From the NCBI GenBank assembly GCA_049322675.1, contig JBMORM010000009.1, positions 158,132 through 222,131 on the forward strand: a DNA stretch of 64,000 nt, written 5' to 3'. Below, piece after piece: positions 34,287 to 37,775 of the stretch. The notes beneath the pieces were generated by a model. It searched no databases. It worked only from the letters and a program-made list of their open reading frames with translations, and was not told the origin of the DNA. The position numbers were made by a program, and so were the translations under genes. The first letter of the stretch is position 1; each line of letters begins with the position of its first letter. The stretch comes from Patescibacteria group bacterium (lineage in GTDB: Bacteria > Patescibacteriota > JAHJAL01).

Positions 34287-34976
34287 TTATTCTATTTTAT
34301 CTGATTTTGCTAAATTACATTTTGCACAAAGTAATCTTATATTTTTAGCAGTTAAGCTGGTTCCGCCTCTTGAGAACGGCAAATCATGATCAAAATGTAA
34401 ATTTTTTGTTGAGCCACACAAAACACATTTCCCTCCGTCTCTTTTCCAAACTTCTTTCTTTACTTCACTCGGGATAAGTCTTGTATGCGCAAGATCTATG
34501 TGTTCATTTGTAGTTAAATCCTGTTCGTCTGATAATTTTAGTGTAAATACAAACACATTTCTTTTGCCGTCATTTTTAATATTGTAATCAATCAAATCAA
34601 ATAAACCTTTTAGTGACCATACGCCAGGCAAAATCTTTTCATAGACTTTGACTGTTTCGGCCTCGGAAATTCTATTTTTAAAATTTTCTACTGCTTTGAT
34701 AAATTTTCCATTTTGAGTTAGTGTGCCATTTCTGGTTTGTTGTGGCTGGTCGAGTAATTTTGGATTCATTTCATAAGAAGTTTTTGGCTCGTCATGTCCT
34801 TCATATTCAATAGTAATTCCATCATCAGAAATGCTGTCGCTATAAGGTGCGTTTGATCTTCGCGACATTAAAATAACTGAATATCTTGGATTCATTCTAA
34901 AATTCATACCTCGTTGCAAGGTCTGAACGCTTTCTAAATCGCACATTTCTCGGTATGAATATATTTGATCTATCAT
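34287..34976 (-). CDS. HNH endonuclease with an N-terminal domain of unknown function
   Basis: C-terminal CVLCGS...HFDHDLPFSRGG...LLCAKCNLAKSDK, the H-N-H and zinc-ligand pattern. Its start lies 6 bp after the upstream ATPase gene. Confidence 0.75.
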   Translation of the reverse strand: MIDQIYSYREMCDLESVQTLQRGMNFRMNPRYSVILMSRRSNAPYSDSISDDGITIEYEGHDEPKTSYEMNPKLLDQPQQTRNGTLTQNGKFIKAVENFKNRISEAETVKVYEKILPGVWSLKGLFDLIDYNIKNDGKRNVFVFTLKLSDEQDLTTNEHIDLAHTRLIPSEVKKEVWKRDGGKCVLCGSTKNLHFDHDLPFSRGGTSLTAKNIRLLCAKCNLAKSDKIE

Positions 34977-34982
34977 ATGTTA

Positions 34983-37775
34983 TTAAAATCCGTATTTTTC
35001 TTTTCTTAATTTAAAGGCGTCTTTGCCGCCCTCAGTAACCAGGGTAATCTCTTCCTTAATTGTTTGTTTATCGATCGCTCCAGAATCTTTGATTGTGCCC
35101 CGAGTTTGATCTCCTGTCTTTACATAGTCACAACATACTACAAGTTCGGCGTCCCCATTTACAACAAAGTTTGCACTATGACTAGCAAAGATAAGTTGGC
35201 GTTTGCTTTTAGCTTTCCATATTTGCTGAACAATATCTGGACTCATCTTGCTATCAATGTCGTCCTCTGGTTGATCGATAATAAGGGGTGCGCCATTTTG
35301 GTTAAGCAAAACAGTAAGCAAGGCTGTAGCTTGCTGACCTGCCGATGCTTCAGAAAACTCAATATACTCGCTCGTATCTTTGTTTGTGCAATAAGAAAAT
35401 TTTGGATTGAACTCCAGTTCAGCAACCGAAAGTTCGATCCATTTTGTAGAGTTGAAGTTGGTCGCTATTCTTGTGCGTTCGTTTTCGATAAACCCACACT
35501 TGCTGAGAATGTGAGTATCCGGCATTCCATCTGGGCCATCCACAGAGTGGAGGGCAAGCTTTTCAAGTTCTTCGAGAATACCGTTCCATTCGGCAATAGG
35601 ATCGGCTGCACCTACAATAGACTGGCAGATTTTTTCAATCTTCTCCTCTTTGATATTCATGCCGGTAAACGCTGCCTTAAATTGTTGAGTTAGAGCTTTT
35701 GTATTAAGACTGCTTTTAATATCCGCCTTGATTAATCCATCTGATAGCGTAGTAAATTGAACGCATTGTGTTTCGAGGGCACTAACTTTCTGTGAGTGTA
35801 TTTCATCCCACTTTTTCCTGAGCTCTTTGTATGTTTTTTCTGGATCACCAAGAGCCATGACAGCATTGCGTTTTTCGGCTTGAGCTTTTTTCAATATTCC
35901 AATTCGTTTTTCGATTGTCTGAATTTGATCAAGTTGTTGTTGGTTGACTTTCGCCGCAGCTTTTGCCGCCTCGTATTTTTTATCAAATCTCTCTTTGAGA
36001 TTCTTCCATACTTTGATTTCAGTATTAATGTCATTAAGCGAAGCGGGATTAAAGAGATTAGAAAGTGCGGTAACACCGGCTTCTACCTCACTAAACTTTG
36101 AAGCATACTTTGCCTGTATGTTTCCGATAAGGACTTTATTCTCTAAATCAACATCTTCATTTTCGCCCTTTTCGCTTGCCAATGTTTTAGCGAGATTATC
36201 AACATGTGCCTGTGTAGTCTCGAGTTCGTTCTTTAGGTTTTCGATAATAGCCTCTTCGTTGTCAAATTTTGCCTTTTGGTCGATAGTCCTCTGATCATCC
36301 TCCGAAAGACCTTTTAGACTTTTCCTTAAGCCAGTTAATTGTTCGGTTAGAGAGGCAATTTCAACTGCGTTTTTTTCAATTTCTGTATCGATTTCCTTTC
36401 TTCGAATTAAATCCCCATAGGATGAGCGAATTTTTGCCTCCGTATCACGAATTTCTGACCGAACACGATCGAGCTCCTGCTTAATAGGAAGCTCAACAAA
36501 ACGTTTAAGCTCATCGATTCGATCCCCAACGCGACTAAGTTGTTTCTGACTGTACGCCTGAATAGGAAGTAAATTCCTTATCTGCTGTTCGGTGGCAGAA
36601 GTAAAGTCTCCATCGCCAATTTTTAATAAAATTTCCTGTTTCTTTGAGCTCCGCTTTACGATATGCCTTACATTGTTCAGCAAGAAAGTAATATGCACTT
36701 CTCCATCGAAATCTTGGAGCGTATTTTTAATTAGATTTTTTCGTTTGTTTTGTACTGAGTCCTCCTCTTCACTTTCGACTGACTGATCGCACAAACCCCA
36801 TCGGAGATATTCAAGAATTGTAGACTTACCGGTACCTCGCCCACCAATAATAGCATTGTATTGCTGATTTAGATCAAGCGACACATTGCCGAGAAATTTA
36901 GAACTGGAGACGCTAATGGAAGTGATCCAGATATTTGGCAATTGTGGCTCATCTTGAGATAAACGAGACTCTCTAGCCAAACATGCCTGTCTCAATGCCT
37001 CGGCAGTTGGTTCAGACCACTTAACCCAAGTAGTGTGTTTGCCAAGATCATCGTGGTTTCTTTTGCGGTTATCAGAAGTCTGAAAGACGCCAATAGCTTT
37101 AAACCCATAGTCTCGATTTTTTCCTTCTATAATGGAGGCGTTTCCTGTCCCAAAATTAGAAATCGGTCCATCAGTATATCCACCCACGCATGGCATAGTT
37201 TTATAAAAATTCCCGAAACCAGTGCGCAACATTGTGCCGTGACCAGTCTCGCTGACATTTGGTAAAACAATAAATCTGCCCTTTATGTGTTCGTGGCTGT
37301 TTAATTTTTCGTAAAGATCAGAGAGATCACCGATTACATTTTGCGGAACTCGTTGGATTGTTGCATGTTTTGCATCTACGGAAGGGGCAGGAGAGATTGC
37401 AAGTGCAGTAAGAACGCTTTGCAATAAATTTTCTGGAAAGTTTGCATCTAAGAGTAAAATTACCTGGCAAGCAGGAGCGGTTAAGGTAAGCTCGATGCCG
37501 GGGAAAACAACAATTCTCTTGTCCTCAGGGACTGATTGACCCGTATCATCCAATTCATCTTGAGCGGCTTTTTTTATGAATGGGAAAAACGCGAAATCAT
37601 GATGATCCGTAATTGCAATTGCTCCCAATCCTTTCTGTCGACATGCTAAAATTAGCTCCTCGGCATATGTTTTTCGATCTGCGTCAGTAACAGCCTCGCC
37701 ACCACTCCATCGAGCGTCTCGCGGTGTGTGTACTTGAAAATCAGATTTATAGAAGTGTGCACCTTTATCATTCAT
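34983..37775 (-). CDS. PHP-domain phosphoesterase fused to a Rad50/SbcC/SMC-like ABC ATPase with a long coiled-coil (930 aa)
   Basis: N-terminal FQVHTPRD...IAITDHHD...VVFPGIELT PHP motifs. Walker A GGRGTGKST, a roughly 400-aa coiled-coil, the signature ASAGQQ, Walker B LIIDQPEDDID and the H-loop FASHSANF. Confidence 0.8.
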   Translation of the reverse strand: MNDKGAHFYKSDFQVHTPRDARWSGGEAVTDADRKTYAEELILACRQKGLGAIAITDHHDFAFFPFIKKAAQDELDDTGQSVPEDKRIVVFPGIELTLTAPACQVILLLDANFPENLLQSVLTALAISPAPSVDAKHATIQRVPQNVIGDLSDLYEKLNSHEHIKGRFIVLPNVSETGHGTMLRTGFGNFYKTMPCVGGYTDGPISNFGTGNASIIEGKNRDYGFKAIGVFQTSDNRKRNHDDLGKHTTWVKWSEPTAEALRQACLARESRLSQDEPQLPNIWITSISVSSSKFLGNVSLDLNQQYNAIIGGRGTGKSTILEYLRWGLCDQSVESEEEDSVQNKRKNLIKNTLQDFDGEVHITFLLNNVRHIVKRSSKKQEILLKIGDGDFTSATEQQIRNLLPIQAYSQKQLSRVGDRIDELKRFVELPIKQELDRVRSEIRDTEAKIRSSYGDLIRRKEIDTEIEKNAVEIASLTEQLTGLRKSLKGLSEDDQRTIDQKAKFDNEEAIIENLKNELETTQAHVDNLAKTLASEKGENEDVDLENKVLIGNIQAKYASKFSEVEAGVTALSNLFNPASLNDINTEIKVWKNLKERFDKKYEAAKAAAKVNQQQLDQIQTIEKRIGILKKAQAEKRNAVMALGDPEKTYKELRKKWDEIHSQKVSALETQCVQFTTLSDGLIKADIKSSLNTKALTQQFKAAFTGMNIKEEKIEKICQSIVGAADPIAEWNGILEELEKLALHSVDGPDGMPDTHILSKCGFIENERTRIATNFNSTKWIELSVAELEFNPKFSYCTNKDTSEYIEFSEASAGQQATALLTVLLNQNGAPLIIDQPEDDIDSKMSPDIVQQIWKAKSKRQLIFASHSANFVVNGDAELVVCCDYVKTGDQTRGTIKDSGAIDKQTIKEEITLVTEGGKDAFKLRKEKYGF

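What the first reader, a model, noticed from the sequence alone, without database searches (positions are those of the whole stretch)
34287..37775. Two-gene candidate defence module: PHP-phosphoesterase fused to an SMC-like ABC ATPase (930 aa), followed by an HNH endonuclease
The 930-aa protein carries full PHP metal-site motifs (QVHTPRD, AITDHHD, GIELT) on a Rad50/SbcC-type ABC ATPase (Walker A GGRGTGKST, signature ASAGQQ, Walker B LIIDQPEDD, H-loop ASHS) whose halves are separated by a roughly 400-aa coiled-coil. Six base pairs downstream is a 229-aa protein with a textbook C-terminal HNH motif. An ABC ATPase plus an HNH gene is the layout of Septu (PtuA/PtuB). A PHP domain fused to an ATPase is the layout I recall for the single-gene Ppl candidates. 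I have not seen these described combined in one operon. The genomic context supports a defence role rather than repair: the pair is a cassette in a recombinase-flanked accessory island.
Basis: partly seen in the sequence, partly recalled or inferred. Interest (0 to 1): 0.85.

Follow-up and report, generated by a model that had tools for sequence, protein, structure and literature searches.

The report
Two separate defence genes, adjacent
The interval holds two real, intact genes that each belong to an already recognised family (a TrlF-family, Ppl-like PHP-nuclease/ATPase and a small SRA-HNH endonuclease); they move independently and sit together only here and in one near-identical relative, so this is not a new conserved two-gene system.

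Summary
Window 34983-37775 (minus strand) encodes a 930-aa protein with an N-terminal PHP-fold domain and a Rad50/SMC-like split ABC ATPase. Six bp downstream, 34287-34976 (minus) encodes a 229-aa protein with an intact HNH motif. The interpretation as a new Septu/Ppl hybrid system is not supported.

- The large protein is a full-length member of NCBIfam "TrlF family AAA-like ATPase" (514.6 bits, cutoff 350). It is already annotated as such in its source Patescibacteria MAG. TrlF is a sister family of the single-gene defence protein Ppl.
- The small protein has an SRA-like N-terminal domain fused to HNH. That is the known architecture of modification-dependent (type IV) restriction enzymes such as TagI.
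- Only 1 of 80 TrlF loci carries the HNH homolog, and 0 of 80 HNH loci carries a TrlF.
- TrlF relatives at 93, 92, 80, 76 and 75% identity lack the HNH gene.
- DNA homology to relatives stops exactly at each ORF boundary, and the two genes differ in GC (41% versus 33%).
- Both genes occur next to many different restriction and defence genes elsewhere.

Verdict: two independently mobile single-gene defence modules, recently juxtaposed. A functional hand-off (HNH cuts feeding a Ppl-like exonuclease) is possible but untested.

The parts
34983..37775 (-). TrlF-family PHP-ABC ATPase gene (930 aa)
   Evidence: ORF. NCBIfam NF045780 TrlF_fam_ATP scores 514.6 bits against a cutoff of 350, covering residues 4-929. 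A 100%-identical database protein is named 'TrlF family AAA-like ATPase [Patescibacteria group bacterium]'. DNA homology to L002 covers exactly 34982-37769.
36966..37775 (-). PHP-fold phosphoesterase/nuclease domain (residues about 1-270), a variant metal site
36531..36932 (-). ABC ATPase head, N-terminal lobe (residues about 282-415): Walker A at 311-319 and a Q-loop-like Q406
35745..36518 (-). Helical (coiled-coil-like) insertion, residues about 420-677, made of six helices
   Evidence: Secondary structure of the AlphaFold2 model. Foldseek alignments to Rad50, SMC, MukB and JetC chains that include coiled coils.
35421..35732 (-). Extra subdomain between the helical insertion and the C-terminal lobe (residues about 682-785)
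   Evidence: AlphaFold2 model. Function not assigned.
34986..35408 (-). ABC ATPase head, C-terminal lobe (residues about 790-930): signature SAGQQ, Walker B IIDQPE, H866
   Evidence: Pfam AAA_21 39.3 bits. The best-scoring stretch of the Ppl models also lies here. Motifs are invariant.
34977..34982 (-). 6-bp junction between the two genes; the joint between two independently mobile units
   Evidence: Sequence. Homology to L002 ends at 34982 and homology to L081 ends at 34977.
34287..34976 (-). SRA-like / HNH endonuclease gene (229 aa), a putative modification-dependent (type IV) restriction enzyme
   Evidence: ORF. The family has more than 7900 homologs, mostly 229 aa. Domain evidence is given in the next two rows.
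34518..34976 (-). SRA-like N-terminal domain (residues 1-153)
   Evidence: Pfam SAD_SRA E 0.012, covering 130 of 148 profile positions. It hits 6 of 25 close homologs, best 4e-4. Of 40 diverse relatives found with this domain alone (738 cluster representatives), 20 hit SAD_SRA at E <= 0.01, best 8e-8. Y45, D47 and Y58 are at least 90% conserved.
34293..34427 (-). HNH (H-N-N variant) nuclease core with a CxxC...CxxC zinc site (residues 184-228)
   Evidence: Pfam HNH 32.6 bits against 21.4, and HNH_5 27.5 against 27.5. C184, C187, D196, H197, N212, C217, C220 and N221 are invariant. Aligns to the IscB HNH domain, E 3e-5.
34057..34286 (-). Conserved non-coding tail that travels with the HNH gene; hairpin-rich, probably a terminator or 3' UTR
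   Evidence: 93% DNA identity to L081 together with the HNH ORF, and also present in L020. Hairpins are visible in the sequence. No Rfam match. GC 44.9%.
38014..38826 (+). Adjacent, divergently oriented tyrosine recombinase (270 aa); context only, not shown to belong to either module
   Evidence: Pfam Phage_integrase 153.5 bits plus SAM-like N-terminal domains. Homology with L020 ends at 37908, before this gene.

Best explanation
The interval contains two independent single-gene defence modules that were recently placed side by side.

Module 1 is a TrlF-family protein, the sister family of Ppl. An SMC/Rad50-like ABC ATPase head with a helical insertion is fused to an N-terminal PHP-fold metal-dependent phosphoesterase. 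By homology with E. coli Ppl, the inferred mechanism is this: bound NTPs keep the enzyme silent; when phage infection depletes NTPs and exposes free 3'-OH DNA ends, the PHP domain acts as a 3'-5' exonuclease, destroys DNA and stops the infection.

Module 2 is an SRA-HNH protein. The inferred mechanism is that the SRA-like domain flips out and recognises a modified cytosine, and the HNH domain then nicks or cuts nearby. This would restrict phages or plasmids that carry modified DNA, as a type IV restriction enzyme does.

Shown here: the domain architectures, intact motifs, family memberships, independent mobility of the two genes, and their defence-island contexts. Inferred: the biochemical activities, the triggers, and co-transcription of the two genes.
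For: Family placement of the large protein:
- NCBIfam TrlF 514.6 bits against a cutoff of 350, full length.
- PADLOC Ppl E 1.4e-44.
- PHP fold and Rad50/Smc-type head confirmed on a model with pLDDT 85.
- Catalytic and ATPase motifs invariant across homologs at 42-93% identity.

Ppl mechanism (literature): Xu et al., Mol Cell 2026, as cited in PMC13434339 and summarised in PMC12904381.

Small protein:
- HNH above the Pfam cutoff.
- SRA by transitive homology: 20 of 40 diverse relatives, best 8e-8.
- SRA-HNH enzymes are characterised 5mC/5hmC-dependent restriction enzymes (PMC6212794, PMC4333417, PMC6765204).

Independence of the two genes:
- The HNH homolog is present in 1 of 80 TrlF loci.
- A TrlF-like gene is present in 0 of 80 HNH loci, with a working positive control.
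- TrlF relatives at 92, 80, 76 and 75% identity lack the HNH gene.
- DNA homology to L002 equals the TrlF ORF only, and homology to L081 equals the HNH ORF plus its tail only.
- GC is 41.1% for TrlF and 33.3% for the HNH gene.

Defence context:
- The 46 tight neighbours of TrlF include HsdR/HsdS, BrxL, HinP1I, DpnII, Eco57I, SduA, GmrSD, SIR2-like and DUF499 proteins; no family occurs more than twice.
- The HNH gene sits 0-13 bp behind MTase+MvaI/BcnI, MTase+BsaWI, DpnI-like or MazG+Schlafen-helicase cassettes.
- TrlF homologs occur on 1118 plasmid records, 806 of them conjugative.
Against: - No member of the TrlF family proper has a demonstrated anti-phage phenotype in the literature I could search. 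The only phenotype is temperature-dependent growth arrest by the Photorhabdus trlR-trlF-trlG operon, where all suppressors mapped to trlG (PMC7554251).
- The window's PHP site lacks two canonical His ligands (Q14, N173), so exonuclease activity is not assured.
- The SRA assignment for this protein is below Pfam's own cutoff (15.8 against 30.7 bits), and the AlphaFold2 model of the small protein was unusable (pLDDT 52).
- The 6-bp spacing and shared strand are what an operon looks like, so functional coupling in this lineage cannot be excluded.
Confidence: 0.75

Rival explanations
1. A genuine two-gene system, Septu-like or a new Ppl+HNH hybrid. The TrlF ATPase senses infection and the HNH protein is its obligate effector, or the reverse.
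For: Same strand, a 6-bp gap and no recognisable terminator between the genes. The pair is retained as a unit, with about 130 bp of flank on each side, in L020. ABC ATPase plus HNH is the Septu layout, and weak PtuA/PtuB profile hits exist.
Against: The pairing occurs in 1 of 80 TrlF loci and 0 of 80 HNH loci. TrlF relatives at 93-75% identity lack the HNH gene. The closest HNH relative (96% identical, L081) follows an MvaI/BcnI restriction-modification system instead. PtuA hits cover only residues 281-376 (E about 1e-4) and PtuB hits cover only the HNH core. The two genes differ in GC. In L020 the TrlF reading frame is interrupted while the HNH gene is intact.
Confidence: 0.08
2. A newly assembled functional relay, not an obligate system. 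The SRA-HNH enzyme cuts modified phage DNA and leaves 3'-OH overhangs, and these are the very signal that a Ppl-like exonuclease senses. The neighbour would then widen or sharpen TrlF activation.
For: Ppl is reported to need 3'-OH overhangs made by phage homing endonucleases, plus NTP depletion. TagI, an SRA-HNH enzyme, leaves single-nucleotide 3' overhangs. The two genes are likely co-transcribed here.
Against: There is no conservation of the pairing. The relay would work in trans from anywhere in the genome, so adjacency is not required. Whether TrlF shares Ppl's trigger is unknown.
Confidence: 0.1
3. The large protein is a housekeeping DNA-repair ATPase (an SbcC/Rad50/RecN/RecF relative) with a PHP nuclease standing in for Mre11/SbcD.
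For: The head and coiled-coil fold is closest to Rad50, Smc and RecN. RefSeq attaches a GO term 'double-strand break repair' to one plasmid homolog.
Against: NCBIfam Rad50 and SMC models score about 29 bits against cutoffs of 567-1000. The gene is patchy and horizontally spread across many bacterial phyla and one archaeal MAG at 42-94% identity, and sits on more than 1100 plasmid records. There are no conserved repair neighbours; the neighbours are restriction-modification, BREX, Shedu and recombinase genes.
Confidence: 0.03
4. The HNH gene is chiefly a selfish mobile (homing-type) element that inserts just behind other genes, rather than a host defence enzyme.
For: Near-identical copies (87-96% protein identity) lie in unrelated contexts, with homology ending at the ORF start. 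About 28 of 67 loci have the gene 0-13 bp behind, or slightly overlapping, an upstream gene of varied families.
Against: It carries an SRA-like modified-base reader typical of type IV restriction enzymes. Its hosts are nearly always other restriction or defence genes, the pattern of defence-island accretion. No intron, intein or repeat structure was seen around it.
Confidence: 0.04

Closest known systems
TrlF (NCBIfam NF045780; prototype PluDJC_RS01880 of the Photorhabdus laumondii Temperature Restriction Locus, Hapeshi et al. 2020, PMC7554251)
   Same: Full-length profile match above the curated cutoff. N-terminal PHP domain ('histidinol phosphatase' annotation) plus a split ABC ATPase. Patchy, mobile distribution, often on plasmids.
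   Different: Only about 24% identical to the enterobacterial plasmid TrlF. Motif I is QxH instead of HxH, and Asn replaces a later His. The prototype's partners trlG (AlbA_2 + HATPase_c_4) and trlR are absent here; the neighbour is an SRA-HNH gene instead. The prototype's known phenotype is growth arrest at 36 C, attributed to TrlG and not to TrlF.
Ppl (Gao et al. 2020 single-gene system; mechanism in Xu et al., Mol Cell 2026)
   Same: The same architecture in one polypeptide (PHP + ABC-type NTPase) and the same stand-alone genomic behaviour. Significant profile similarity (PADLOC E 1.4e-44; NCBIfam 197 bits, strongest in the C-terminal lobe).
   Different: Far below the NCBIfam Ppl cutoff (197 against 1000 bits), so it belongs to a sister family and is not Ppl. 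Exonuclease activity, NTP inhibition and 3'-OH sensing are untested for TrlF.
SRA-HNH modification-dependent restriction endonucleases (TagI, ScoA3IV/Sco5333, TbiR51I; PMC6212794, PMC4333417, PMC6765204)
   Same: N-terminal SRA-like domain plus a C-terminal HNH with a zinc site, small size, and conserved Tyr/Asp/Tyr residues where the TagI pocket has Tyr55/Tyr67 plus a carboxylate.
   Different: Too divergent for a profile search of the PDB to reach TagI. Unlike the PUA-HNH enzymes surveyed by Lutz et al., which were rarely near methyltransferases, this family often directly follows N4/N6-methyltransferase restriction-modification systems. Specificity is unknown.
Septu (PtuA/PtuB)
   Different: PtuA has no PHP domain, and PtuB has no SRA domain. 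The profiles match only generic cores. The gene pair is not conserved.

Membership tests
TrlF family (NCBIfam NF045780) | Full-length match to the family profile above the curated cutoff | tested here: met
   514.6 bits against a cutoff of 350; residues 4-929 on profile positions 1-944. The identical protein is annotated TrlF by NCBI.
TrlF family (NCBIfam NF045780) | N-terminal PHP-fold domain fused to a split ABC ATPase with a helical insertion | tested here: met
TrlF family (NCBIfam NF045780) | Operon with trlG and trlR as in the Photorhabdus prototype (a feature of the prototype locus, not of the protein family) | tested here: not met
   No such genes flank the window gene. No AlbA_2 or HATPase_c_4 family appears among those listed for the 46 tight neighbours (top 25 of 34 families shown). 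The original paper also found the three-gene synteny only rarely.
Ppl (NCBIfam NF042955 / PADLOC PDLC02208) | Profile score above the curated cutoff | tested here: not met
   197.5 bits against a cutoff of 1000, in three stretches. PADLOC Ppl 150.5 bits, E 1.4e-44, partial.
Ppl (NCBIfam NF042955 / PADLOC PDLC02208) | Single polypeptide with PHP + NTPase domains that acts without a conserved partner gene | tested here: met
   Architecture. No neighbour cluster occurs in more than 8 of 80 loci, and no Pfam family occurs in more than 2 of the 46 tight neighbours.
Ppl (NCBIfam NF042955 / PADLOC PDLC02208) | ssDNA 3'-5' exonuclease activity, inhibited by NTPs and triggered by 3'-OH overhangs | not testable with these tools
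   Known for E. coli Ppl from the literature only. Testing it here would need biochemistry.
Septu (PtuA/PtuB) | ATPase matches PtuA profiles over most of its length | tested here: not met
   Best PtuA hit has E 9.3e-5 and covers residues 281-376 only, the Walker A region.
Septu (PtuA/PtuB) | HNH partner matches PtuB profiles beyond the HNH core | tested here: not met
   Best PtuB hit has E 2.3e-4 and covers residues 156-228 only. The N-terminal domain is SRA-like instead.
Septu (PtuA/PtuB) | Conserved co-occurrence of the two genes | tested here: not met
   1 of 80 TrlF loci and 0 of 80 HNH loci. Absent from TrlF relatives at 93-75% identity.
SRA-HNH modification-dependent restriction endonucleases | C-terminal HNH (beta-beta-alpha-Me) nuclease motif with catalytic residues intact | tested here: met
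   Pfam HNH 32.6 bits against 21.4. The D196-H197, N212 and N221 residues and four zinc cysteines are invariant.
SRA-HNH modification-dependent restriction endonucleases | N-terminal SRA (SAD/SRA, PUA-superfamily) domain | tested here: met
   Met by transitive homology only. The window protein itself is below the Pfam cutoff (15.8 against 30.7 bits, E 0.012, covering 130 of 148 profile positions). Of 40 diverse relatives of the domain, 20 hit SAD_SRA at E <= 0.01, best 8e-8, and 2 hit PF18491 SRA.
SRA-HNH modification-dependent restriction endonucleases | Flipped-base pocket (two Tyr walls plus a carboxylate, as in TagI and UHRF1) | tested here: inconclusive
   Y45, D47 and Y58 are at least 90% conserved, with Tyr-Tyr spacing of 13 against 12 in TagI. 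There is no usable 3D model (pLDDT 52), so the correspondence rests on my reading of the alignment.
SRA-HNH modification-dependent restriction endonucleases | Cleavage depends on 5mC/5hmC or another DNA modification | not testable with these tools
   Needs enzyme assays on modified and unmodified DNA.
Housekeeping SbcC/Rad50/RecN/RecF/SMC | Profile membership and conserved repair or segregation neighbours | tested here: not met
   Rad50 29 bits against 1000 and SMC 28.7 against 567. The neighbours are defence and mobile-element genes. The similarity is at the fold level only.

The most novel reading that the evidence does not exclude
The juxtaposition is a newly formed functional relay. The SRA-HNH enzyme cuts modified phage DNA and leaves 3'-OH overhangs, which license the neighbouring Ppl-like TrlF exonuclease. 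This would give a host-encoded trigger for a sensor that normally depends on phage homing endonucleases. More broadly, this SRA-HNH family would be a plug-in 'end-maker' or second-line cassette, recruited directly behind many unrelated defence genes (restriction-modification systems, DpnI-like proteins, MazG+Schlafen-helicase, TrlF).
Probability: 0.1. Interest if true: 0.55.

Novelty: new member of a known kind. Interest (0 to 1): 0.25.

Why it matters
As it stands this is ordinary. It adds a candidate-phyla-radiation (Patescibacteria) example to two recognised families and corrects a tempting 'new system' reading.

Three smaller points have value:
1. TrlF is abundant: about 2,500 hits among the scored candidates and more than 1,100 plasmid records. 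It is linked to defence islands and is homologous to Ppl, yet has no demonstrated anti-phage phenotype. It is a good candidate for direct testing.
2. The window's clade carries a conserved variant PHP metal site (QxH, Asn for His). This could show which ligands the nuclease chemistry really needs.
3. The SRA-HNH gene behaves as a portable cassette that attaches within a few bases behind very different defence genes. That is a concrete example of how defence islands grow, and it suggests a testable hand-off between an end-making nuclease and an end-sensing exonuclease.

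Tried and rejected
- Literature search for 'TrlF' alone was swamped by the spectroscopy acronym TRLFS, and adding 'ATPase' gave nothing relevant. Searching for neighbouring gene names (trlE, trlG and so on) found the Photorhabdus paper.
- Sequence searches of the PDB found no hit for the large protein alone, only weak Smc-head hits with a family profile, and only HNH-core hits for the small protein. 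No Ppl, TrlF or TagI entry was reached by sequence.
- The AlphaFold2 model of the small protein from an 18-sequence alignment was poor (pLDDT 52), so I did not use it for a fold search. The SRA call rests on profile evidence instead.
- Rfam scan of 33500-38500 found nothing at E <= 1.
- Promoter and terminator scans gave no more hits than shuffled sequence, so they say nothing about co-transcription.
- I looked for island boundaries. The only tRNA is tRNA-Phe at 44910-44984, and no repeat of 13 nt or more from it occurs elsewhere in the window. There is no second recombinase in 24-34 kb. The island limits remain undefined.
- tblastn of the small protein against plasmids found only HNH-core matches. 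tblastn of TrlF against phages found only partial C-terminal ABC matches.
- A Pfam scan of the 56-member alignment exceeded the residue limit, so I used the 13-member divergent set instead.
- One locus (L160) would not translate at the reported coordinates and was dropped.
- Considered and rejected: Septu membership, housekeeping SbcC/RecN, and Ppl proper (see the membership tests).

Full report
**What is there.** A 930-aa ORF lies at 34983-37775 and a 229-aa ORF at 34287-34976, separated by six bases (TAA-taacat-ATG). All quoted motifs are at the stated places. In an alignment of 56 homologs at 42-93% identity, these are invariant:
- the ABC motifs: Walker A G311-S318, Q406, S811-A-G-Q-Q, D834-Q-P-E837 and H866;
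- a set of PHP-type acidic and His residues: D12, H16, D20, D57, H58, H59, E95 and D235.

**Structure of the large protein.** An AlphaFold2 model built on that alignment is confident (mean pLDDT 85.3, pTM 0.68). It has five parts:
- an N-terminal alpha/beta domain (residues 1-270);
- an ABC N-terminal lobe (282-415);
- about 260 residues of long helices (420-677);
- a small extra subdomain (682-785);
- the ABC C-terminal lobe (790-930).

**Corrections to the observation.** The PHP metal site is a conserved variant, not a full canonical site. Where the enterobacterial TrlF has DFHLHT and AHV, the window's clade has DFQVHT and PNV. Pfam PHP is below its cutoff for this protein (19.8 against 26.4 bits), although 9 of 13 divergent relatives hit it at E <= 0.01.

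**What the large protein is.** It is a full-length member of NCBIfam NF045780, 'TrlF family AAA-like ATPase' (514.6 bits, cutoff 350). The identical protein is already annotated that way in a Patescibacteria MAG. The name comes from the Temperature Restriction Locus of Photorhabdus laumondii (trlR-trlF-trlG). That operon arrests growth at 36 C; all spontaneous suppressors mapped to trlG and none to the large 'histidinol phosphatase' gene trlF (PMC7554251).

TrlF is homologous to the validated single-gene defence protein Ppl, but it is not Ppl (NCBIfam Ppl 197.5 bits against a cutoff of 1000; PADLOC Ppl E 1.4e-44). According to recent literature, E. coli Ppl is an ssDNA 3'-5' exonuclease whose PHP and NTPase domains are inhibited by bound NTPs. 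It is activated by NTP depletion together with 3'-OH overhangs made by phage homing endonucleases (Xu et al., Mol Cell 2026, cited in PMC13434339; summarised in PMC12904381). Models for housekeeping Rad50 and SMC score about 29 bits against cutoffs of 567-1000, so the refutation condition 'squarely in SbcC/RecN/RecF' is not met.

**What the small protein is.** The C-terminal HNH core is above Pfam's cutoff (32.6 against 21.4 bits). Its residues are invariant in the family: the zinc ligands C184, C187, C217 and C220, plus D196-H197, N212 and N221, which makes it the H-N-N variant.

Residues 1-153 form a strongly conserved domain whose only recurring Pfam match is SAD_SRA:
- E 0.012 for the window protein, covering 130 of 148 profile positions;
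- 6 of 25 close homologs, best 4e-4.

A full HMMER scan of 1.84 billion cluster representatives with this domain alone found 738 relatives. Of 40 diverse relatives, 20 hit SAD_SRA at E <= 0.01 (best 8e-8) and 22 carry HNH. I therefore call the protein an SRA-HNH fusion. That is the architecture of the characterised 5mC/5hmC-dependent restriction enzymes TagI, ScoA3IV and TbiR51I (PMC6212794, PMC4333417, PMC6765204). Y45, D47 and Y58 are conserved where TagI has its Tyr55/Tyr67 pocket walls and a carboxylate, but I could not check this in 3D because the model of this protein was poor (pLDDT 52).

**Are the two genes a system?** This was the key test, and the answer is no.
- Among 80 genomic loci encoding TrlF homologs at 42-94% identity, spanning many bacterial phyla and one archaeon, only L020 (94% identical) has a homolog of the HNH protein. 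In L020 the TrlF frame is interrupted.
- The relative at 93% identity (L002) and those at 92, 80, 76 and 75% have other genes downstream.
- Among 80 metagenomic loci encoding HNH homologs at 67-96% identity, none has a TrlF-like gene. Sixty-seven of them have at least 400 nt of upstream sequence, and the positive control worked.
- At the DNA level, homology between the window and L002 covers exactly the TrlF ORF (34982-37769). Homology with L081 covers exactly the HNH ORF plus 230 bp of non-coding tail (34057-34977). Only L020 shares both.
- The genes also differ in composition: 41.1% GC for TrlF and 33.3% for the HNH gene.
- PtuA and PtuB profiles match only the Walker A region and the HNH core at E about 1e-4.

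The pair is therefore a recent, lineage-restricted juxtaposition of two independently mobile genes.

**Context.** The defence reading is nonetheless supported, by association across each family rather than by the window's own flanks.
- TrlF homologs have no conserved neighbour; the largest neighbour cluster, a serine recombinase, occurs in 8 of 80 loci.
- Their 46 tightly linked same-strand neighbours include type I HsdR/HsdS, BREX BrxL, R.HinP1I, DpnII, Eco57I, DUF499, Shedu SduA, GmrSD, SIR2-like proteins, PD-(D/E)XK nucleases, resolvases and RadC. No family occurs more than twice.
- On Sphingobium plasmid pMI3, TrlF follows a methyltransferase-helicase pair by 8 bp.
- TrlF-like genes lie on 1118 plasmid records, 806 of them conjugative.
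- The HNH gene is typically 0-13 bp behind very different cassettes: N4/N6 methyltransferase + MvaI/BcnI endonuclease, methyltransferase + BsaWI endonuclease, a DpnI-like protein, or MazG-like + Schlafen-group-3 helicase.

In the window itself, one tyrosine recombinase lies divergently upstream (38014-38826). The other flank carries miscellaneous metabolic genes and no recombinase. No att-like repeat of the only tRNA (Phe, 44910-44984) was found. So 'recombinase-flanked island' is an overstatement.

**Mechanism.** My best-supported reading (confidence about 0.75) is two stand-alone modules. All of the steps below are inferred from homologs; none is shown for this locus.

For TrlF, by homology with Ppl:
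- ATP/NTP-bound ABC heads and an NTP-occupied PHP site keep the protein off.
- NTP depletion and free 3'-OH ends during infection switch on PHP exonuclease activity.

For SRA-HNH, by homology with TagI-type enzymes:
- The SRA domain flips out a modified cytosine.
- The HNH domain nicks both strands nearby.

A speculative link is that TagI-type cuts leave 3' overhangs, which are the signal Ppl is reported to sense. The neighbour could then feed TrlF. I give this about 0.1, because the pairing is not conserved and the relay would not need adjacency.

**Novelty and score.** Both genes are new members of known kinds. The large protein is already annotated to its family. The proposed new two-gene system is not supported. 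Interest is low to moderate (0.25). The useful leads are that TrlF itself lacks a demonstrated anti-phage phenotype despite its abundance, that this clade has a variant PHP site, and that the SRA-HNH gene behaves as a portable add-on behind many defence genes.

Noticed in passing
window 34057-34286: A GC-rich (44.9%) non-coding stretch downstream of the HNH gene travels with the gene: 93% identical in L081 and also present in L020. It holds several hairpins, including GGTGGAGGCTTT-tatac-AAAGCCTCCACC nested inside cggcatatctg...cagatatgccg. No Rfam match. Probably a terminator or 3' UTR of the cassette.
   Followed up: partly
L081-L160 (for example L116, L122, L126, L133, L158, L159): In about 9 loci the HNH homolog is the last gene of a tight same-strand triad: MazG-like (about 115 aa), Schlafen-group-3/DUF2075 helicase (about 617 aa), then SRA-HNH, with gaps of -4 to 13 bp. 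This recurrent three-gene arrangement might itself be a defence system.
   Followed up: partly
L081, L093, L097, L101, L103, L110; L087, L092, L095, L100: The SRA-HNH gene sits 1-3 bp behind complete type II restriction-modification systems (N6_N4 methyltransferase + MvaI/BcnI-type endonuclease, or methyltransferase + BsaWI-type endonuclease, the latter often followed by a second methyltransferase). This contrasts with the published finding that PUA-HNH enzymes are rarely near methyltransferases.
   Followed up: partly
L020:4386-7185: In the only other locus with the TrlF-HNH pair, the TrlF match is split into two tblastn pieces (residues 1-531 and 534-930), and the ORF stops at about 5999. 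This is a frameshift or stop, so either a pseudogene or an assembly error, while the HNH gene is intact.
   Followed up: no
L002, L020, P0121: Near-identical proteins are assigned to very different taxa: TrlF at 93% in a 'Gammaproteobacteria' MAG and at 94% in a 'Bacteroides' MAG, and the HNH protein at 96% in a 'Thermoplasmatota archaeon' MAG on a 3.7-kb contig. This means either very recent horizontal transfer or mis-binned short contigs.
   Followed up: no
L161:2493-3774 and L163:2575-3853: Two TrlF relatives (92% and 75% identical) both have a divergently oriented AbiEii toxin gene plus a gene of about 191 aa (likely the AbiEi antitoxin) immediately upstream of TrlF. This is a recurring neighbour among the few close relatives examined.
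   Followed up: no
L166 (Sphingobium sp. MI1205 plasmid pMI3): TrlF follows a site-specific DNA methyltransferase and a DEAD/DEAH helicase, with an 8-bp gap between the helicase and TrlF. This type III restriction-modification-like arrangement may explain why JGI labels many homologs 'type III restriction enzyme'.
   Followed up: no
window 39719-43458 and 44910-44984: Beyond the integrase lie a 917-aa protein with Big_1 and SdrD-like repeats and a 323-aa protein with a weak WxL-interacting-protein (WxLIP) domain match, both probably surface proteins. The window's only tRNA (Phe) follows. No link to the finding was established.
   Followed up: no
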